This document shows, in pieces, positions 7,239 to 63,588 of a DNA stretch of 64,000 nt. The DNA lies in assembly GCA_964603545.1 (NCBI GenBank), contig CAZRVD010000003.1, positions 4,945 to 68,944 on the forward strand. The letters are read 5' to 3'. This DNA is from an uncultured Candidatus Saccharibacteria bacterium (lineage in GTDB: Bacteria; Patescibacteriota; Minisyncoccia; Phycocordibacterales; DATDWN01). Within the stretch, counting starts at the first letter, position 1. Every line of letters begins with the position of its first letter. The notes beneath the pieces are model-generated. The model searched no databases. It was not told the origin of the DNA and saw only the letters and a list, made by a program, of their open reading frames with translations. A program made the position numbers and the translations under genes.

Positions 7239-7320
7239 GAGAATTAATTAATAACACAAAAAATCTATCTTGAAAAGTCAGAACTTTCATAATCTAGATG
7301 AAATCCGACGTTGAGGATTT

Positions 7321-7363
7321 GAAAATGAGAGGAGCCTTACAATTAGTAAGGTGACGAACATTT
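7321..7363. repeat. Intergenic conserved motif, copy 1 (GAAAATGAGAGGAG ... TTACAA ... TAGTAAGGTGACGAACATTT)
   Basis: Matches 15210-15333, which carries an ~80-nt insertion between the two conserved blocks. Both copies sit in the gap between two minus-strand genes. Confidence 0.5.
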
Positions 7364-7401
7364 CCAAGTGCGAAGCTAGGAGTTCGCTAGATTTGGAAGT
7401 T

Positions 7402-15209: not shown

Positions 15210-15333
15210 GAAAAATGAGAGGAGTGAGAAATGATGTGCATCATTTCGCAAGACTTTGAACGTTCTGTAATCAGAATGTGAAAAGTGTACAGAACCTGTA
15301 AGGTTTACAAGTAGTAAGGTGACGAACATTTTT
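15210..15333. repeat. Intergenic conserved motif, copy 2 (with ~80-nt insertion)
   Basis: Shares GAAAAATGAGAGGAG and TTACAAGTAGTAAGGTGACGAACATTT with 7321-7363. Confidence 0.5.
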
Positions 15334-19902: not shown

Positions 19903-19939
19903 TTTTTTAAAATTTTAAATAATTATAACTAGCTAAATA

Positions 19940-20434
19940 ATACCACCAAAAGTGGATTTTGGGAATGGTTATCCACACATCTGGTGCTAACTGTATAGAC
20001 GCTTTGGCACGGTGAATATTACATAAACAACAAACCGGGCGCTTTTGGGCGACCGGTTGCAGGTTTACTGCGGGAGACCAGGAAAAATCCCCGCAGTCAT
20101 AGACGTCTTGCTCGAGGCAAGAATCGTCTGAATAGTATCAAAGAACGCCAGAAGGGTTCGTTCGATACCAGAGAAAATCTCTGGGGTAAGGAACTTAATC
20201 GTGATAATTAGCATTCCAAACCCAACAGTTCGTAGTATTTTCATACTTTTGTTGTAGAGGGAGAGACCTAAGTTACTGTTCCGACAAACAGTAACCTGAT
20301 ATTGCTAATTACCAGATTGCCCCCCTCATCCACGATGACCAATAAATTGATCAGAATGGAAGAAAAGAGGTTCCGATTTATCCGTACGCCAGCTTGCCAG
20401 CGTTTTAGGATTGTTTAATTATCAAATAACTTAC
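19940..20434 (-). ncRNA. Candidate ~500-nt structured non-coding RNA of unknown class, promoter-to-terminator unit
   Basis: No ORF of 60 aa or more on either strand across ~500 nt. Extended -10 TGGTATAAT on the minus strand at 20441-20449. Terminator-like hairpin CCAAAAgtggatTTTTGG at 19946-19962 followed by a T-run. Many strong internal hairpins (GTTACTGTTtgtcggAACAGTAAC, CTGCGGG...CCCGCAG, CTTGCctcgaGCAAG). G+C above flanks. Confidence 0.35.
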
Positions 20435-20473
20435 GCCCGCATTATACCACACATTCAATGAAAAAAGCAATGC

Positions 20474-21278: not shown

Positions 21279-21364
21279 ATTTTTTATTTAATTGTAATGA
21301 CTTAATTATAACAAATGTATAAATTTATATGACACTACGCTATCCACTTTCAAAAATTCTAGAA

Positions 21365-21402
21365 AATCACCGACAAAACAAAGCCACGTCGATGCGTGGC
21401 TT
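21365..21402 (-). terminator. Intrinsic terminator of the 21443-21679 foreign gene
   Basis: AAGCCACGtcgatgCGTGGCTT hairpin followed by a T-rich run on the minus strand. Confidence 0.5.
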
Positions 21403-21442
21403 AGATTTCCAAGGGAACCAGTCTTGCCAGTCGTGCCAGGGT

Positions 21443-21679
21443 CTAGACCTGCCGACGACACGGGTCGCCGGAGCAGATGTTTACAAACTTGCATCTGCTA
21501 CAGTCCAGATTTGGGTCTGAAAACCCACCAACTCCATCCCGATTCTCCGTCATTGCGATCGTGCGCCTGTTGGCATCATTGGAGAACATTACTGCCTCTG
21601 ATGATGACATGCCCACCATGGCAAGAACCGAGAACTGCTGTGCGATAGCCTCTCTTATCTGACGTGACTTGAATGCCAT
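21443..21679 (-). CDS. Small G+C-rich foreign protein (~78 aa) with a C-terminal 4-Cys cluster
   Basis: Start chosen at MAFKSRQ because GGGGAGGG SD lies 9 nt upstream. C-terminus CSRCKFVNICSGDPC. Has its own promoter (TTGACA -17- TAGAAT at 21710-21738) and terminator. Confidence 0.4.
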   Translation of the reverse strand: MAFKSRQIREAIAQQFSVLAMVGMSSSEAVMFSNDANRRTIAMTENRDGVGGFSDPNLDCSRCKFVNICSGDPCRRQV

Positions 21680-21733
21680 AACCCTGACCCTCCCCATACA
21701 TCCTTTTTTATTCTATTCCTCCTGTTTAATCTG

Positions 21734-25481: not shown

Positions 25482-25554
25482 TGGACCCGACAGGACTCGA
25501 ACCTGCCACCCCATCATTGCAAATGATGTGCTCTACCAGATGAGCTACGGGCCC
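25482..25554 (-). tRNA. tRNA-Ala (anticodon UGC)
   Basis: Reverse complement GGGCCCGTAGCTCATCTGGTAGAGCACATCATTTGCAATGATGGGGTGGCAGGTTCGAGTCCTGTCGGGTCCA. Cloverleaf folds, anticodon loop TTTGCAA, G3:U70 Ala identity pair, 73 nt, CCA not encoded. Confidence 0.85.
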
Positions 25555-25761
25555 ATTATGCCTAAGTAAATTAAACTGCTTTAATTTACTTTGGACTTAT
25601 GGGAGCCAGAGACATGTTTCGCTACCAAGCTAAACAGTCGAGGCGGGGTCGCGGAATTCTGCGAACGACGGTGAGCAAAATATCTGTGACCTAATGAAGA
25701 TTACCAAAATTATTTACAAAATTCAAGCGGGCACTTCGCGTGCCCGCTCGTGTGAGCTGTA

Positions 25762-29092: not shown

Positions 29093-29203
29093 ATCCAACG
29101 AGAGCACACGGGTGCTGGGAGACCTATCTCCTGGCATGCCGTTTTTTTATCTTGACTTAACAGCATTTGGATTGTAGCATAAACAGAAGGAGACCTAGAC
29201 ACC

Positions 29204-29314
29204 ATGATCAGAACCCTTTTGATTATAGCCGGGTTTTGTGTGGTCGCGGGAGTAGTTGTCTGGTGTGTAGAACACCTATACGGTGGAACACCAGGCAGGA
29301 ATATCGGCGACTAA
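29204..29314 (+). CDS. Second small hydrophobic peptide (36 aa, single TM), G+C-rich foreign
   Basis: AAGGAGACC SD then ATG. MIRTLLIIAGFCVVAGVVVWCVEHLYGGTPGRNIGD. Confidence 0.35.
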   Translation: MIRTLLIIAGFCVVAGVVVWCVEHLYGGTPGRNIGD

Positions 29315-29328
29315 TGCGCACACGTGTG

Positions 29329-29360
29329 CCGGGAAGTGATTCCCGGCGCCGTTTTTCATT
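29329..29360 (+). terminator. Intrinsic terminator of the two-peptide cassette
   Basis: CCGGGAagtgatTCCCGG hairpin followed by CGCCGTTTTTCATTTATTTTATTTT. Confidence 0.55.
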
Positions 29361-29364
29361 TATT

Positions 29365-31995: not shown

Positions 31996-32129
31996 AATAT
32001 ATCAAAAAATTAACCCTGTCGGCCGTATGGGTTATCTATAGTCAAATATACTAACACGTACTAACTACAATGTACATTGACTTTGTAGCTCTAAATGATA
32101 ATGTCTTTAAAGAAGGGGGTGATGTGACT

Positions 32130-32381
32130 ATGCTGACAAATACCAATGCAAATTTCAAGTTGCCTCCTGAAGAGAAGGTGACATGGATCGACCCTAGCGA
32201 GGCTGGAGATCTTGCGGAGACTGTCACGGAATACATCAGAGTATATGGTAGGGAGGGACTCACACTTCACTCAACCACCAACTCAACAGCACTGGAAAGG
32301 AATATCGTCCTTGCAACCTTGAGAAAAGACGGCAAGATCCTTCCAGGCACCTTCATAAAGTCTCTTCTCCGTAAAGTGTAG
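32130..32381 (+). CDS. Small G+C-rich foreign protein (~83 aa)
   Basis: GGGGGTG SD upstream of the MLTNTNANFK start. Own terminator downstream. Confidence 0.4.
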   Translation: MLTNTNANFKLPPEEKVTWIDPSEAGDLAETVTEYIRVYGREGLTLHSTTNSTALERNIVLATLRKDGKILPGTFIKSLLRKV

Positions 32382-32390
32382 AAAAGAAAC

Positions 32391-32435
32391 GCGGCGCTCC
32401 TCGGAAGTTCGAGGGCGCCGCTGTATCGTATTTAC
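32391..32435 (+). terminator. Intrinsic terminator of the 32130-32381 gene
   Basis: GCGGCGCTCctcggaagttcGAGGGCGCCGC hairpin then a T-rich tail. Confidence 0.45.
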
Positions 32436-35007: not shown

Positions 35008-36219
35008 CTAATTTTTATCGTATTTTACCAAAAACTCCTTTTTATATTTTTTAAAATCACCAAACAACATTTCTTCTCGCATTTTAGAGACTAGGTGTGT
35101 AATAAAGTAAATATTGTGTATGGAAGTTAGCGTAGAAGCTAGCATTTCTTTGCTATGAAAAAGATGAGCAACATAGCTTCTAGTAAAGTTCACGCAGGTG
35201 TAACAACCACAATCCTCGTCGAGCGGTCTTAGATCACTTCTAAACTTTTCGTTAAGTAAATTTATCTTACCAAATTTTGTGTAAGCCCCTCCATTTCTGG
35301 CAATCCTTGTTGGCACGACACAATCAAAAAGATCACAACCATTTTCTACTGCCATAAAAAGATCTTCAGGTTCTCCTATACCAAGTAAATGTCTTGGTTT
35401 TTCTTTTGGAAGTATTTCGTTTACCCATTGCACTGCCTTGTCCATATCTTCTTTATCAAAGGAACCTCCAATACCAAAACCATCAAAATCTAATCCTCCA
35501 ATAAAATCAGCGGACTCTTTTCTTAACCTTTCACTTCTTCCTCCTTGAACTATCCCGAAAAGTGCCTGATACTCTGAATTCGGTTTTGATTTGTGGTATT
35601 CCAAAGATTGTTTTGCCCAACGATGTGTTCTGTCGAGTGCTTCTGCTTGATAATGGTCGCTTTCATTTGGAGAGGTGCACTCATCAAAAGCAAAAATAAT
35701 ATCTGCACCTAGATTATGTTGAATATCAATAGATTTTTCTGGAGTAAAATAATGAGCATCTCCGCTAATATGATCGCGAAACATGACACCATTTGGGTCT
35801 ATTTTTGCTATTTTGGGTAAATCATTTTCTTCATTTAATTCATCTAGTAGAATTTCTTCGTTTTTTTTGTGAGCAATTTTACTTAGTCCATTTTTACCGT
35901 ACGCCACACCAAGAGAAAATACTTGAAATCCTCCAGAGTCTGTCATAAGTGGCCCATTCCAATTCATTGCCTTATGAAGGCCACCAATTTTTGATATCTG
36001 CTCGTGTCCTGGTTCCAAATACAAATGATAAGTATTAGCAATAATAGTCTGCACTCCCGTTTCTTTCACTTGTTCTGGAGTAAGTGACTTTACGGTACCC
36101 TTTGTTCCAACCGCAACAAAAGCTGGAGTCTGTATGTCTCCATGTAGTGTATGTATTGTCCCAACTCTTCCCAAAGTTCCCGCCAACTCTTTATGTATTT
36201 CAAATTTAAGTGACTTCAT
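35008..36219 (-). CDS. tgt: Queuine tRNA-ribosyltransferase
   Basis: DSGGFQ, LLGIGEPEDL, zinc site CGCYTCVNFTRSYVAHL. Confidence 0.9.
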   Translation of the reverse strand: MKSLKFEIHKELAGTLGRVGTIHTLHGDIQTPAFVAVGTKGTVKSLTPEQVKETGVQTIIANTYHLYLEPGHEQISKIGGLHKAMNWNGPLMTDSGGFQVFSLGVAYGKNGLSKIAHKKNEEILLDELNEENDLPKIAKIDPNGVMFRDHISGDAHYFTPEKSIDIQHNLGADIIFAFDECTSPNESDHYQAEALDRTHRWAKQSLEYHKSKPNSEYQALFGIVQGGRSERLRKESADFIGGLDFDGFGIGGSFDKEDMDKAVQWVNEILPKEKPRHLLGIGEPEDLFMAVENGCDLFDCVVPTRIARNGGAYTKFGKINLLNEKFRSDLRPLDEDCGCYTCVNFTRSYVAHLFHSKEMLASTLTSIHNIYFITHLVSKMREEMLFGDFKKYKKEFLVKYDKN

Positions 36220-36283
36220 ATAATTTTTTTAAATCTAACACACTAAAGACCTTTTTCAAAAAACACCTGTATTCACTAACTTT

Positions 36284-36313
36284 TATTTCACAGCGATATA
36301 TCGCTGTGAAATA
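36284..36313. repeat. Perfect 30-bp palindrome TATTTCACAGCGATATATCGCTGTGAAATA, copy 1 (24-bp core TTCACAGCGATATATCGCTGTGAA)
   Basis: Identical to 36584-36613, exactly 300 bp apart. The core also occurs at 63101-63124 and 63561-63584. Confidence 0.9.
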
Positions 36314-36323
36314 TTCTATGTAT

Positions 36324-36540
36324 AAAAAAACGGGTGGGTTGGGAGCGATAGATTGCTCCCTTCCCACCCGGTTCGGACGGTTTCTTTCCACCGTCATTGG
36401 TATTGCTGGCCGACTGCGGCCCTGACACGGACGATCGAACGTGAGTACGAGCGTAAGGTCGAAACAAGCTAGGAGTTCGAAACGGACGAGACAGAGTCGA
36501 AGTTTCCGAGGCAATAGGTGAAGGCATCCCTCCACCGCTA
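36324..36540 (-). ncRNA. Candidate ~215-nt small RNA in a G+C-rich cassette bracketed by the palindromes
   Basis: Promoter TTGACT(36570-36575)-17-TATGCT(36547-36552) on the minus strand. Terminator CGGGTGGGaagggagcaatctatcgctcccaaCCCACCCG + T7 at 36324-36370. No credible ORF (only low-complexity S/P/R read-through frames). Repeated UUCGA-containing hairpins. Confidence 0.35.
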
Positions 36541-36546
36541 ACAGCA

Positions 36547-36575
36547 AGCATACACCCATTCTCTAGTAAAGTCAA
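36547..36575 (-). promoter_or_regulatory. sigma70-like promoter (TTGACT -17- TATGCT) of the candidate sRNA, directly abutting palindrome copy 2
   Basis: Read directly on the minus strand. The palindrome centre lies ~60 nt upstream of the predicted TSS. Confidence 0.45.
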
Positions 36576-36583
36576 GTACACTT

Positions 36584-36613
36584 TATTTCACAGCGATATA
36601 TCGCTGTGAAATA
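36584..36613. repeat. Palindrome copy 2 (identical 30-mer)
   Basis: See 36284-36313. Confidence 0.9.
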
Positions 36614-36624
36614 AAAGAGAGTAA

Positions 36625-36662
36625 CCAAAAAACAGACTTACTTTAGTCTGTTTTTTGGTTTG
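36625..36662 (-). terminator. Bidirectional intrinsic terminator downstream of the FKBP gene
   Basis: CAGACTtactttAGTCTG hairpin with T6 on both strands. Confidence 0.5.
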
Positions 36663-36681
36663 CTTTTTTAAAGTTATTCAA

Positions 36682-37131
36682 TTACTCCACCTTTAACAAC
36701 TCGATTTCGAAAATAAGTGTTGAACCAGCTGGTATGGGCCCATAATCCTGATACCCATACCCAAGCTCTGGAGGAACAACTACTATTCTCTTTCCACCAA
36801 CCCTCATTCCAACAAGTCCTTCATCCCAACCTTTTATAACCTGCCCACTACCTAGCACAAACTGAAACGGTTCACCTCTCGTTACTGAACTGTCAAAAAC
36901 ATTTCCATCTGTAAACTTGCCCGTATAGTGAACCACAACCCTACTTCCAGTTTTTGCTTCTTCTCCTGTTCCAACTACAATATCTTGTCCCATAATTTGT
37001 GAAGTTTGAGCAGTGCTCTCATTTGTTTTACTAAACATTGAAACTAATCCTTGCCCAAAAATAAAGAAAAATCCAACAATAAAAACAGAAACTACTACTG
37101 CTACCCATTCATTTTTACTTAATTTTTTCAT
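36682..37131 (-). CDS. FKBP-type peptidyl-prolyl cis-trans isomerase with N-terminal membrane anchor
   Basis: VVVHYTGKFTDGNVFDSS...GWDEGLVGMRVGGKRIVVVPPELGYG. Confidence 0.8.
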   Translation of the reverse strand: MKKLSKNEWVAVVVSVFIVGFFFIFGQGLVSMFSKTNESTAQTSQIMGQDIVVGTGEEAKTGSRVVVHYTGKFTDGNVFDSSVTRGEPFQFVLGSGQVIKGWDEGLVGMRVGGKRIVVVPPELGYGYQDYGPIPAGSTLIFEIELLKVE

Positions 37132-44542: not shown

Positions 44543-44740
44543 GGCCCTGGTCGAAAGACCCGGGCCTCTTCTGTAATATAAAATCTCGTTGAACACATAT
44601 CTTTTTTGAGACTCCGCAGACCCAAAGCTTGGTTCCGTCAAGGCATTCCATCTTGACGGATTTAGGTCGAGGACTAAACGAACTCTCCGCAGGAGAGAGT
44701 GAGTGGTCTCAAAAAAGATATGTGTGAGAAAGAGATTACA

Positions 44741-58439: not shown

Positions 58440-58564
58440 ATGCCCTCCCTTGGGTAGAAACAACGAACAGAAATCCTGAACCTTATGACATTATACACCC
58501 GTTTACTATTATTGTCAAATACAATTTTAGTACTAAAACAACCTTACTTATACGACCAAAATTA

Positions 58565-63094: not shown

Positions 63095-63130
63095 TATTAA
63101 TTCACAGCGATATATCGCTGTGAATTAATA
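63095..63130. repeat. Perfect 36-bp palindrome TATTAATTCACAGCGATATATCGCTGTGAATTAATA, copy 3 of the 24-bp core
   Basis: Between the stop of the YerC-like gene and the start of the large hydrolase gene. Confidence 0.9.
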
Positions 63131-63131
63131 C

Positions 63132-63536
63132 CTATTTTGCATATTTTCTCCAATACTTTTTTCCTATCTTGGGTGGCATTAATCCACCCACCGTCATAAT
63201 GCTCCAAATTATTTTCTCTAGATCTATTTTTTCTCTCTGAGATGTTTTTAAAATGGAATTATACTTCCCTATTTCCATCTTTAGAGAAATCATTGTAATA
63301 GTTGAAGTACTTACCTTTAATATTTCTGAGATTGAAAGCTGTGGTATTTTTGAATTCAACAATAATACAATAGCAATTCTTTTAGCTAGCATTAGCTTTT
63401 CTGTATCGGTCAAAAGTTCATTGACTACCCCAGACAACAACTTTTTATTCTGAGATTTATTCAAGATCAGTATTAGATCATTAAATAACTTGTCTGAAAG
63501 TTCCTTATCCAATTCCTTACTAGAGATATGTGGCAT
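63132..63536 (-). CDS. TrpR/YerC/YecD-family helix-turn-helix protein (135 aa)
   Basis: LTDTEKLMLAKRIAIVLLLNSKIPQLSISEILKVSTSTITMIS matches the YerC/TrpR-like HTH. Start at MPHISS. The longer ORF to 63800 reads through palindrome copy 4. Confidence 0.5.
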   Translation of the reverse strand: MPHISSKELDKELSDKLFNDLILILNKSQNKKLLSGVVNELLTDTEKLMLAKRIAIVLLLNSKIPQLSISEILKVSTSTITMISLKMEIGKYNSILKTSQREKIDLEKIIWSIMTVGGLMPPKIGKKYWRKYAK

Positions 63537-63556
63537 ATATTCATCAATTATTGATA

Positions 63557-63588
63557 ATATTTCACAGCGATATATCGCTGTGAAATAT
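63557..63588. repeat. Perfect 32-bp palindrome ATATTTCACAGCGATATATCGCTGTGAAATAT, copy 4, ~25 nt upstream of the YerC-like start codon
   Basis: Read directly. Confidence 0.9.

What the first reader, a model, noticed from the sequence alone, without database searches (positions are those of the whole stretch)
36324..36575. Candidate novel small RNA carried in the palindrome-bracketed foreign cassette
On the minus strand: TTGACT(36570-36575)-17 bp-TATGCT(36547-36552), then about 215 nt with no plausible ORF (the only long frames are S/P/R low-complexity read-throughs that also cross the terminator and the palindrome). It ends in CGGGTGGGaagggagcaatctatcgctcccaaCCCACCCG + UUUUUUU. The body holds four hairpins each presenting a UUCGA-containing loop or stem (ACUUCGAC, GUUUCGAAC, GUUUCGACC, CGUUCGAUC). 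That could be a repeated protein- or RNA-binding motif, or T-loop mimicry. I could not match it to SRP, 6S, tmRNA or RNase P consensus elements.
Basis: partly seen in the sequence, partly recalled or inferred. Interest (0 to 1): 0.75.

Follow-up and report, generated by a model that had tools for sequence, protein, structure and literature searches.

The report
New small RNA gene beside tgt
A roughly 215-base non-coding RNA gene with its own promoter and terminator sits between two housekeeping genes of an uncultured Parcubacteria bacterium; it matches no catalogued RNA family, has one clear relative in another genome, and its function is unknown.

Summary
The transcription unit is real. On the minus strand there is TTGACT-17-TATGCT, then about 215 nt at 52% GC (genome 38%), then a two-tier terminator with U7. 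It matches no Rfam family and has no conserved reading frame.

One clear ortholog lies at the same FKBP-tgt position in a second Parcubacteria genome (L003). Both share:
- the 5' hairpin;
- a 36-nt unstructured block, 33/36 identical, with frame-breaking indels;
- a pyrimidine-rich, UUCG-rich body;
- a GC hairpin;
- a GGGUGG..CCACCC terminator.

So "candidate novel sRNA" is supported.

- The four UUCGA motifs are more than chance gives, but they do not sit in four defined hairpins. The ortholog has UUCG x7 and UUCGA only once, so T-loop mimicry fails.
- The palindromes are not the vehicle. The ortholog has one variant copy, on one side only. A second pair in the window brackets an unrelated TrpR-like gene.
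- The promoter looks native.

The FKBP-tgt spacer is a hot spot. It is 3-100 nt in 16 related loci and 206-1370 nt in 17. The long spacers hold several unrelated promoter-plus-terminator RNA-like units, none found in Rfam where scanned, and small ORFs.

The likeliest function is a trans-acting regulator that uses its single-stranded pyrimidine-rich platform. This is inferred, not shown.

The parts
36570..36575 (-). -35 hexamer TTGACT of the sRNA promoter
   Evidence: The L003 ortholog has the same hexamer and a 17-nt spacer.
36547..36552 (-). -10 hexamer TATGCT, preceded by GGGTG
   Evidence: The same GGGTG-TAT context occurs at the strong promoter at 58518 in this window and in L091.
36324..36540 (-). 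Predicted transcript, about 215 nt. The start is inferred about 7 nt after the -10; the end is the U7 tract.
   Evidence: Sequence; fold z=-3.1; no Rfam hit.
36517..36536 (-). P1: 5' hairpin GGUGGAGG-GAUG-CCUUCACC (8 bp, -13.8 kcal/mol)
   Evidence: L003 has GUGGGGGA-GUUG-UCCUCCAC of equal stability (-13.6 kcal/mol) at the same position.
36477..36512 (-). Most conserved block GCCUCGGAAACUUCGACUCUGUCUCGUCCGUUUCGA (33 of 36 identical to L003). Locally unstructured; contains the anti-SD-like CCUC.
   Evidence: blastn E=5e-5; reading of both sequences; local fold of the first 18 nt of the block plus 4 upstream nt only -1.9 / -0.6 kcal/mol, no better than shuffles.
36422..36516 (-). Pyrimidine-rich body (66% C+U, 15% A) with UUCGA at 36497-36501, 36477-36481, 36459-36463 and 36435-36439
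36408..36421 (-). P3: GC hairpin GGCCG-CAGU-CGGCC, preceded by conserved GUGUC. A predicted long-range helix P2 (36511-36516 with 36401-36406) closes the body.
   Evidence: L003 has an analogous GC hairpin preceded by GUGUC, and a long-range helix of different sequence.
36376..36395 (-). P4 hairpin GACGGU-GGAAAGAA-ACCGUC (absent from L003)
36324..36371 (-). Two-tier intrinsic terminator: GGGUGGG / AA / GGGAGC-loop-GCUCCC / AA / CCCACCC + U7
   Evidence: L003 has the same layout: GGGUGGUC / AA / UGC-UUCG-GCA / AA / GACCACCC + U6.
36586..36611 (.). Upstream palindrome TTTCACAGCGATATATCGCTGTGAAA, 10 bp upstream of the -35. Not part of the transcript.
   Evidence: Absent at this position in L003.
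36286..36311 (.). Downstream palindrome (identical copy), between the sRNA terminator and the tgt promoter (TTGAAA-16-TAGATT, 36232-36259)
   Evidence: L003 has the variant TTTCACTACAATATATTGTAGTGAAA at the same place.
36623..36660 (.). Bidirectional terminator of the upstream FKBP gene; it isolates the sRNA unit from read-through
   Evidence: A similar terminator followed within about 15 nt by TTGACW is found in all occupied spacers of relatives.

Best explanation
It is a genuine stand-alone non-coding RNA gene of about 215 nt and the founding member of an uncatalogued, narrowly distributed sRNA family of Parcubacteria.

Shown:
- A near-consensus sigma-70-type promoter.
- A stable 5' hairpin (P1).
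- A long, pyrimidine-rich, weakly structured central region. It holds a 36-nt highly conserved single-stranded block and 4 (window) or 7 (ortholog) UUCG motifs.
- A GC hairpin and a two-tier intrinsic terminator.
- No coding potential.

Inferred:
- The RNA acts in trans through the exposed pyrimidine-rich platform.
- Most likely it pairs its CCUC/UUCG-containing single-stranded block with purine-rich segments of mRNAs (Shine-Dalgarno-type, GAGG/CGAA) and so changes their translation or stability. C-rich sRNAs of Hfq-independent Gram-positive bacteria work this way.
- The flanking helices would serve as protective clamps.

The palindromes on either side are separate intergenic elements, not part of the RNA or its vehicle.
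For: - The promoter and terminator are real, and such strong promoter matches are rare in the window.
- GC island.
- Fold stability: z=-3.1 for the window RNA and z=-3.9 for L003.
- No Rfam family matches.
- The L003 ortholog is at the same locus in the same orientation. Local alignment z=13 and semi-global z=6.6, with 0 of 300 shuffles as good. blastn E=5e-5.
- P1 has equal stability in both RNAs despite sequence changes.
- The conserved block is unstructured on its own and mostly unpaired in the ensemble. Bacterial sRNA seed regions typically show this pattern (general knowledge).
- Indels of 1 and 3 nt lie inside the conserved block, and no frame is conserved.
- The ORF product is an orphan.
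- tgt keeps its own promoter close to the ATG whether or not an RNA unit lies upstream, so the RNA is not a tgt leader.
- SD sequences in this genome are AGGAGG-like, complementary to the CCUC/CUCC motifs in the body.
Against: - Transcription has not been observed.
- Only two clear family members exist, so covariation cannot be tested statistically.
- No target stands out. Duplex energies against 57 translation-initiation regions of the window are no better than shuffled controls. Searches for the complement of the conserved block give only chance-level hits. The window is probably a small fraction of the genome, so this test is weak.
- The repeated UUCG motif, with its variable copy number and a 25-nt tandem duplication in L003, fits a multivalent protein-binding platform at least as naturally as a base-pairing seed.
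- Distribution is patchy. By tgt identity, the closest relatives of both carriers lack this RNA.
Confidence: 0.45

Rival explanations
1. Protein sponge or decoy. The pyrimidine-rich loop, with its 4-7 UUCG-containing units, is a multivalent binding platform. It would titrate a single-strand pyrimidine-binding factor (for example a cold-shock-domain, S1 or KH protein, or Rho, whose rut sites are C-rich, G-poor and unstructured). The logic is that of CsrB/RsmZ or CrcZ.
For: - UUCG(A) is enriched over dinucleotide shuffles in both orthologs.
- Copy number differs (4 versus 7), and L003 shows a 25-nt tandem duplication of the unit.
- The body is weakly structured and clamped by stable helices.
- The near-consensus promoter suggests high expression.
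Against: - No candidate binding protein has been identified.
- UUCG enrichment in the window RNA alone is marginal (P=0.06-0.12).
- The longest conserved element is a 36-nt block rather than just the short motif.
- Protein-sequestering sRNAs are a small minority of known bacterial sRNAs (general knowledge).
- GGA motifs (the CsrA type) are not conserved: by my own reading of the two sequences, there are 6 in the window RNA and 2 in L003.
Confidence: 0.22
2. Exchangeable cargo of a hot spot. The unit is one of many interchangeable small genes that are gained, lost or swapped between related Parcubacteria in the FKBP-tgt spacer. This could happen by homologous recombination through the conserved flanks, or with help from the palindromes acting as recombination sites, like pdif modules or REP/PATE elements. 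Its cellular role may be accessory or conflict-related. This concerns origin and is compatible with either functional model.
For: - Spacer length is bimodal: 3-100 nt in 16 loci versus 206-1370 nt in 17.
- At least two other RNA-like families and several singletons, plus small ORFs, occupy the same spot in relatives.
- The two carriers of this RNA are not each other's closest relatives by tgt identity.
- A 10-6-10 palindrome resembles a tyrosine-recombinase core site (inference from the sequence).
- Other dispersed small elements exist in these genomes.
Against: - L003 carries the RNA with a single palindrome, so the RNA is not inside a bracket there.
- No empty site with a single palindrome was found, and no recombinase lies nearby.
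- No copy of the palindrome or the RNA occurs in viral contigs.
- The FKBP terminator plus TTGACW promoter boundary is shared by all occupied spacers. That equally fits one ancestral, fast-diverging sRNA locus.
Confidence: 0.2
3. Cis-acting leader or attenuator of tgt. A riboswitch- or T-box-like element would control read-through into tgt via the terminator.
For: - A 215-nt structured RNA ending in a terminator lies about 105 nt upstream of tgt, in the same orientation.
- GGGUGG in the 5' arm of the terminator loosely recalls the T-box sequence (from memory; a lead only).
Against: - tgt has its own promoter between the terminator and the ATG: TTGAAA-16-TAGATT here and TTGTAA-16-TAGATT in L003.
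- Relatives with no RNA unit keep a promoter-like TA...T hexamer close to the tgt start codon.
- No T-box, preQ1 or other riboswitch model matches at E<=10.
- Other genomes carry unrelated units at the same position, up to three in tandem.
Confidence: 0.04
4. Small protein gene. This is the 87/97/117-aa S/P/R-rich frames, as in the GenBank annotation of hypothetical protein CEO12_160.
For: - Long open frames exist in two minus-strand frames.
- Gene callers predicted an 87-aa product.
Against: - The frames start inside the promoter, have no properly spaced SD, and run through the terminator and the palindrome.
- An A-poor sequence lacks stop codons by composition.
- No protein homolog exists anywhere.
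- There is no Pfam hit.
- Frame-breaking indels lie in the conserved block, and no frame is conserved with L003.
Confidence: 0.03

Closest known systems
C-rich, Hfq-independent base-pairing sRNAs of Gram-positive bacteria (RsaE/RoxS, S. aureus RNAIII)
   Same: A stand-alone gene with its own promoter and intrinsic terminator. Several single-stranded pyrimidine-rich motifs (here CCUC, CUCC, UUCG) sit between stable hairpins. A conserved unstructured block could pair with G/A-rich ribosome-binding sites.
   Different: There is no sequence or Rfam relationship. The motif is UUCG/CCUC rather than CCCC/UCCC, and it is mostly not displayed in hairpin loops. No targets are known. The RNA is longer, with a body of about 95-120 nt held as a closed loop.
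Protein-sequestering sRNAs with repeated short motifs (CsrB/RsmY/RsmZ, CrcZ)
   Same: A short motif is repeated 4-7 times with variable copy number between orthologs. The repeat unit has expanded by duplication. A strong promoter and a terminal Rho-independent terminator are present.
   Different: The motif is not GGA or A-rich. The motifs are not in hairpin loops. No partner protein is known. No Rfam match.
SRP RNA helix 8 (4.5S/scRNA)
   Same: Locally, GUCAGG-stem-tetraloop-stem-AGCA (window 36402-36427) resembles GUCAGGUCC-GGAA-GGAAGCAGC of domain IV. This comparison is from memory of the E. coli 4.5S sequence.
   Different: The loop is CAGU, not GNAR. The asymmetric loop is on the wrong side. 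AGCA is not conserved in L003. No SRP model scores at E<=10.
REP/BIME-type intergenic palindromes, PATE elements and pdif modules (for the flanking palindromes only)
   Same: Perfect 26-32-bp palindromes occur in several identical copies in intergenic DNA. Arm changes are compensatory between genomes (AGCG/CGCT versus TACA/TGTA). The hairpin is stable (-18 kcal/mol). Assemblies break at them (L002 starts inside one). Pairs bracket small genes, as pdif sites do.
   Different: No RAYT, IS200-type or Xer gene is seen nearby. Only 4 copies are known. Three of the four lie within 30 bp of a predicted promoter, which would equally suit an operator of the TrpR-like protein that one pair brackets.

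Membership tests
Any Rfam 15 family (including SRP, 6S, tmRNA, RNase P, T-box, preQ1 riboswitches) | Covariance-model score at or above the family's gathering threshold | tested here: not met
   The whole window at gathering score gives only tRNA-Ala at 25482-25554. 36200-36700 at E<=10 gives only weak hits to the AT-rich flanks, palindromes and terminator hairpin, none over the RNA body and none to those families. The L003 ortholog also has no hit.
Bacterial SRP RNA | Helix 8 with a GNAR tetraloop, a symmetric loop (AGG/AGCA) and a 5'-heavy asymmetric loop, conserved across homologs | tested here: not met
   The loop is CAGU. The asymmetric loop would be 2 nt on the 5' side and 5 nt on the 3' side. 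AGCA is absent in L003. No CM hit.
6S RNA | Rod-like fold with paired 5' and 3' ends and a large central bubble | tested here: not met
   In the MFE and centroid folds of both orthologs the ends are not paired with each other. Each fold has a separate 5' hairpin and a terminator. No CM hit.
tRNA-like / T-loop mimic | A 5-bp stem closing a 7-nt UUCRANY loop; detection by ARAGORN; motif conserved in homologs | tested here: not met
   ARAGORN finds only tRNA-Ala elsewhere. The UUCGA motifs lack flanking complementary stems. L003 has UUCGU/UUCGG in most copies and UUCGA only once.
Trans-encoded bacterial sRNA (generic kind) | Own promoter, Rho-independent terminator, intergenic position, no conserved ORF, conservation in a related genome | tested here: met
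   promoter and terminator; no conserved ORF; ortholog.
Trans-encoded bacterial sRNA (generic kind) | Detected transcript and identified target or partner | not testable with these tools
   No expression data are available. Target searches limited to the 64-kb window give no signal above chance.
CsrB/Rsm-type sponge | Multiple GGA motifs in hairpin loops, conserved in homologs | tested here: not met
   By my own reading of the sequences, the window RNA has 6 GGA and L003 has 2. The enriched motif is UUCG.
Cis-regulatory leader of tgt (riboswitch, T-box, attenuator) | No promoter between the element and the regulated gene; the element co-occurs with the gene | tested here: not met
   A tgt promoter lies between the terminator and the ATG. 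Many relatives have tgt without the element, or with unrelated units.
Type III toxin-antitoxin RNA array | Tandem direct repeats of the antitoxin RNA, followed by a toxin gene after a terminator | tested here: not met
   TRF finds no tandem repeat in the window RNA. The downstream gene is tgt (Pfam E=6.6e-135).
Mobile cassette bracketed by recombination sites (integron attC, pdif module, PATE) | The cargo is always bounded by two sites; empty sites or the same cassette appear at other loci | tested here: not met
   The L003 ortholog has only one palindrome. No second copy of the RNA occurs in the window or in about 100 loci. Complete genomes could not be searched.

The most novel reading that the evidence does not exclude
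The FKBP-tgt spacer of this Parcubacteria clade is a dedicated exchange point for strongly expressed, fast-evolving structured-RNA genes. It holds at least three unrelated families, up to three units in tandem. This RNA is one allele of that pool: a multivalent UUCG-repeat decoy that titrates a host, phage or partner-cell factor. It would then be an RNA-based accessory or conflict island in ultra-small episymbiotic bacteria, and the ATATAT-centred palindromes would act as recombination or insulation sites.
Probability: 0.12. Interest if true: 0.7.

Novelty: new member of a known kind. Interest (0 to 1): 0.4.

Why it matters
To my knowledge, almost nothing is known about regulatory RNAs in candidate phyla radiation (Patescibacteria) bacteria. 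Their genomes are tiny and many are thought to lack classical RNA chaperones.

This is a clean, well-bounded sRNA gene with an ortholog and a conserved single-stranded block. It can be tested directly by metatranscriptome mapping, by a covariance-model search of public assemblies, and by in-vitro binding.

It also corrects a database annotation: hypothetical protein CEO12_160 is very probably not a protein.

The more interesting by-product is the variable spacer upstream of tgt. It holds several RNA-like units not found in Rfam (where scanned) in related genomes. That could be mined systematically for new RNA families.

Tried and rejected
- Rfam at gathering score and at E<=10, on the window, the ortholog and 20 related loci: nothing relevant.
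- ARAGORN: no tRNA or tmRNA at this position.
- SRP-like reading of GUCAGG..AGCA: rejected, because the loop geometry is wrong, it is not conserved in L003, and no CM hit was found.
- T-box or riboswitch leader of tgt: rejected, because tgt has its own promoter.
- CsrA-type GGA sponge: GGA is not conserved.
- CreT-like tRNA-sequestering mini-ORF (SD-like GGAGG directly before AUG in the P1 loop, CGA/UCG codons): rejected. By my own reading, the start codon and spacing are not conserved in L003 or L088.
- Protein coding: rejected.
- Metagenome scan with CCTCGGANACTTCGN{1,4}CTGTCTCG: 5 hits, all the same phage-like coding region, so false positives.
- Viral-contig scans for the palindrome and for the P1-plus-GCCUCG pattern: none.
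- nhmmer or blastn of this RNA and of six other spacer units against all loci: no further members.
- Shuffle-controlled alignments of the window RNA to nine other spacer units: only L003 is significant. L091 is marginal (z=2.2). The P1 resemblance in L088 is anecdotal.
- Target prediction against 57 start regions of the window, and complement searches: no signal above chance.
- A whole-RNA MAFFT alignment of WIN, L003 and L091 was too poor to justify building a covariance model.
- Literature searches for CPR/Patescibacteria sRNAs found nothing relevant.

Full report
**Context**
- The window comes from Parcubacteria group bacterium Gr01-1014_46, a candidate phyla radiation bacterium. Its tgt protein is 100% identical to that record.
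- The finding lies in the 462-nt spacer between an FKBP-type prolyl isomerase gene (36682-37131, minus) and tgt (35008-36219, minus).
- Neighbouring genes are ordinary housekeeping genes: a pseudouridine synthase, a LOG-family protein, xseA/xseB, a small MerR-like HTH protein and uvrB.

**Checking the observation**

- On the minus strand, TTGACT (36575-36570), 17 nt and TATGCT (36552-36547) form a promoter-like site.
- The stricter pattern TTGACW-N17-TAnnnT occurs only seven times on both strands of the 64-kb window.
- GC content rises to 0.50-0.53 across 36300-36599, against 0.34-0.37 next to it and 0.38 overall.
- The unit ends in CGGGUGGG-AA-GGGAGC-AAUCUAUC-GCUCCC-AA-CCCACCCG followed by U7.
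- The FKBP gene has its own bidirectional terminator at 36623-36660. tgt has its own promoter, TTGAAA-16-TAGATT, at 36259-36232. The unit is therefore insulated on both sides.
- The predicted 223-nt RNA folds to -83.5 kcal/mol, z=-3.1, with 0 of 200 shuffles as stable.
- Rfam 15 gives nothing at gathering score in the whole window except tRNA-Ala.
- Rfam gives nothing over the RNA body at E<=10.
- ARAGORN finds no tRNA or tmRNA here.
- The four UUCGA strings are present and exceed expectation (shuffle mean 0.45, 0 of 2000 shuffles with 4).
- The claim of four hairpins each presenting the motif does not hold. In the ensemble the motifs are partly in weak stems (mean unpaired probability 0.17-0.48) with no shared context.

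**Not coding**
- The long frames start inside the promoter, have no properly spaced Shine-Dalgarno sequence, and read through the terminator into the palindrome.
- They stay open because the sequence is A-poor (15% A in the body).
- Gene callers did predict an 87-aa product (GenBank CEO12_160). It has no homolog among 5.8 billion clustered proteins and no Pfam domain.
- The most conserved nucleotide block differs between the two orthologs by a 1-nt and a 3-nt indel. A six-frame comparison finds no conserved frame. The only matches run through the terminator and palindrome, in different frames.

**An ortholog**
- Eighty tgt loci from GTDB species representatives, plus 13 further contigs of close relatives, were collected.
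- One genome, CAZSNI010000002.1 (L003, tgt 84% identical), carries a homologous RNA gene at the same place and in the same orientation.
- In L003 the order is: FKBP, terminator, TTGACT-17-TAAACT, an RNA of about 210 nt, terminator, palindrome, TTGTAA-16-TAGATT, tgt.
- Similarity is significant. blastn gives E=5e-5 against all loci. Local alignment gives z=13 and semi-global z=6.6, with 0 of 300 dinucleotide shuffles as good.

The two RNAs share these features:
- (i) P1. It is GGUGGAGG-GAUG-CCUUCACC in the window and GUGGGGGA-GUUG-UCCUCCAC in L003, at -13.8 and -13.6 kcal/mol.
- (ii) UGCCUCG just after P1.
- (iii) A 36-nt block, GCCUCGGAWACUUCG..CUGUCUCGUCC..GUUUCG, with 33 identities. It has no stable local structure.
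- (iv) A pyrimidine-rich, A-poor body: 66% and 71% C+U.
- (v) GUGUC followed by a GC hairpin.
- (vi) A predicted long-range helix of different sequence that closes the body.
- (vii) The same two-tier terminator, with GGGUGG in the outer stem and AA/AA internal loops.

L003 has UUCG seven times (P=0.002) but UUCGA only once, and it contains a 25-nt tandem duplication. The shared motif is therefore UUCG inside a unit that expands and contracts, not a T-loop-like UUCGA.

**No further members**
- None were found by nhmmer or blastn.
- None were found by shuffle-controlled alignments to nine other spacer units.
- None were found by a metagenome pattern scan, which gave only false positives in a phage-like gene.
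- None were found by viral-contig scans.

**The locus is a hot spot**
- Among 33 loci with FKBP directly upstream of tgt, the spacer is 3-100 nt in 16 and 206-1370 nt in 17. Two of the 17 long spacers are the window's own contig and a duplicate of L098.
- Among relatives with tgt at 79% identity or more, 11 of 15 spacers are occupied.
- Occupied spacers start alike: an FKBP terminator of the type AAAAAACAGC..GCUGUUUUUU, about 15 nt, then TTGACW-17-TAnnnT. What follows differs.
- One family of about 350 nt occurs in L089, L090 (third unit) and L098.
- A second family occurs in L085, L090 (second unit), L006 and L022.
- Singletons occur in L086, L088, L091 and L008.
- Small ORFs occur in L007 and L100.
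- L090 has three units in tandem.
- The four singleton units that were folded are clearly more stable than shuffles (z=-4.3 to -5.2).
- None of the units in the loci that were scanned (L098-L100 were not) matches Rfam.
- By tgt identity, the closest relatives of the two carriers lack this RNA. L088 is closest to the window (87%). L097 (88%) and L090 are closest to L003.
- The unit is therefore a derived and patchily distributed occupant of the spacer. This is the part of the 'foreign' idea that survives. It cannot yet be decided whether this reflects one ancestral locus diverging very fast or replacement by recombination.

**The palindromes**
- TTTCACAGCGATATATCGCTGTGAAA occurs four times in the window, where none is expected by chance. 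The copies are at 36286, 36586, 63100 (2 mismatches that keep the symmetry) and 63560.
- The second pair brackets an unrelated 135-aa TrpR-family gene.
- L003 has a single copy, only downstream of the RNA, with both arms changed in a compensatory way (TACA/TGTA for AGCG/CGCT).
- L085 has a shorter variant between the FKBP stop codon and the FKBP terminator.
- The hairpin is very stable (-18.1 kcal/mol). One independent assembly breaks inside it (L002).
- Three window copies lie within 30 bp of a predicted promoter. One is 10 bp upstream of the sRNA -35. One is 26 bp upstream of the tgt -35. One is immediately downstream of a perfect TTGACA-18-TATAAT promoter of the TrpR-like gene.
- They are thus either REP-like intergenic hairpin repeats or operators, possibly for the TrpR-like protein. 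The data do not decide between these.
- They are not the carrier of the RNA gene.

**Mechanism**
- Shown: the anatomy of an insulated, probably strongly transcribed, non-coding unit. Its most conserved part is a long single-stranded pyrimidine-rich segment clamped between stable helices.
- Inferred: it acts in trans through that segment.
- I rank base pairing to purine-rich mRNA segments first. Most stand-alone bacterial sRNAs work that way (general knowledge). The conserved block is unstructured and contains CCUC, which is complementary to the AGGAGG-type ribosome-binding sites seen in this window. C-rich sRNAs of Hfq-independent bacteria use the same logic.
- The main rival is a multivalent decoy for a pyrimidine-binding protein. 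The repeated UUCG unit and its copy-number variation favour that rival.
- Target searches within the window gave nothing above chance. That is a weak test, because the window is probably a small fraction of the genome.

**Verdict**
- This is a real and well-delimited candidate sRNA gene and a new family of a well-known kind.
- It has one ortholog and sits in a variable RNA-rich spacer.
- The cassette and T-loop interpretations are not supported.
- Function remains inferred.

Noticed in passing
window 63100-63125 and 63560-63585, with ORF 63132-63539 (-): A second pair of the same palindrome brackets a 135-aa TrpR-family HTH gene. One copy lies immediately downstream of a perfect TTGACA-18-TATAAT promoter (63629-63600), at or near the transcription start. 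The other lies just after the stop codon. This suggests either autoregulation through the palindrome or 5'/3' hairpins on the mRNA.
   Followed up: partly
L089 1515-1866, L090 1618-1970, L098 about 1110-1465: An uncatalogued RNA-like family of about 350 nt ('family A') has its own TTGACA promoter and terminator in the FKBP-tgt spacer of three related genomes. L089 and L090 are 73% identical over 356 nt. There is no Rfam hit in L089 or L090; L098 was not scanned. It shares a 3' module of about 85 nt (CCCCGAG..CGUAGGGGC..GGGCGACUCAG..CUGGGCGCCC U-run) with another unit in L090.
   Followed up: partly
L085 2160-2466, L090 1120-1578, L006 2668-2975, L022 2660-2975: A second uncatalogued GC-rich RNA-like family ('family B', 300-460 nt) lies at the same spot in four genomes. 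The L006 and L090 5' ends are 91% identical over 69 nt. L085 and L090 are 68% identical over 173 nt. No Rfam hit at gathering score in any of the four.
   Followed up: partly
window 7281-7401 (-), partial copy at 15305-15333; L091 1520-1640, L006 2460-2581, L007 2164-2285, L086 2010-2130: A dispersed element of about 125 nt has terminal inverted repeats (AACTTCCAAATTTGG ... CCAAATT.TGAAAGTT) and a central hairpin. It lies just after FKBP in several relatives but at a different intergenic site in this window (81% identity). It looks MITE-like or is a small structured RNA. No Rfam hit at gathering score in the window.
   Followed up: partly
window 44560-44740: An intergenic element of about 150 nt is bounded by perfect 20-bp inverted repeats (ACACATATCTTTTTTGAGAC / GTCTCAAAAAAGATATGTGT). 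A related sequence lies in the FKBP-tgt spacer of L089 (1405-1439), and by eye in L098 (about 885-1035).
   Followed up: partly
window 19903-20473, 21279-21733, 25560-25760, 31996-32431: Further GC-rich intergenic islands (80-nt GC maxima of 0.54-0.62 in a 38% GC window) have no Rfam match. They may hold small ORFs, leaders or other uncatalogued RNAs.
   Followed up: no
window 29152-29364 (+): A strong promoter (TTGACT-17-TAGCAT) is followed by an SD and a small hydrophobic ORF of about 36 aa (MIRTLLIIAGFCVV...) and a terminator. It is probably an unannotated small membrane protein.
   Followed up: no
window 36288-36551 (-): The GenBank/ENA record annotates an 87-aa hypothetical protein (CEO12_160) over the RNA gene. 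It is an orphan with no homologs and is most likely a mis-annotation.
   Followed up: yes
L002 position 1 (= window about 36309); L083/L084 position 1: Independent assemblies of this genome and of a relative end inside or right next to the palindrome upstream of tgt. This is consistent with the palindrome being a multi-copy repeat that breaks assemblies.
   Followed up: no
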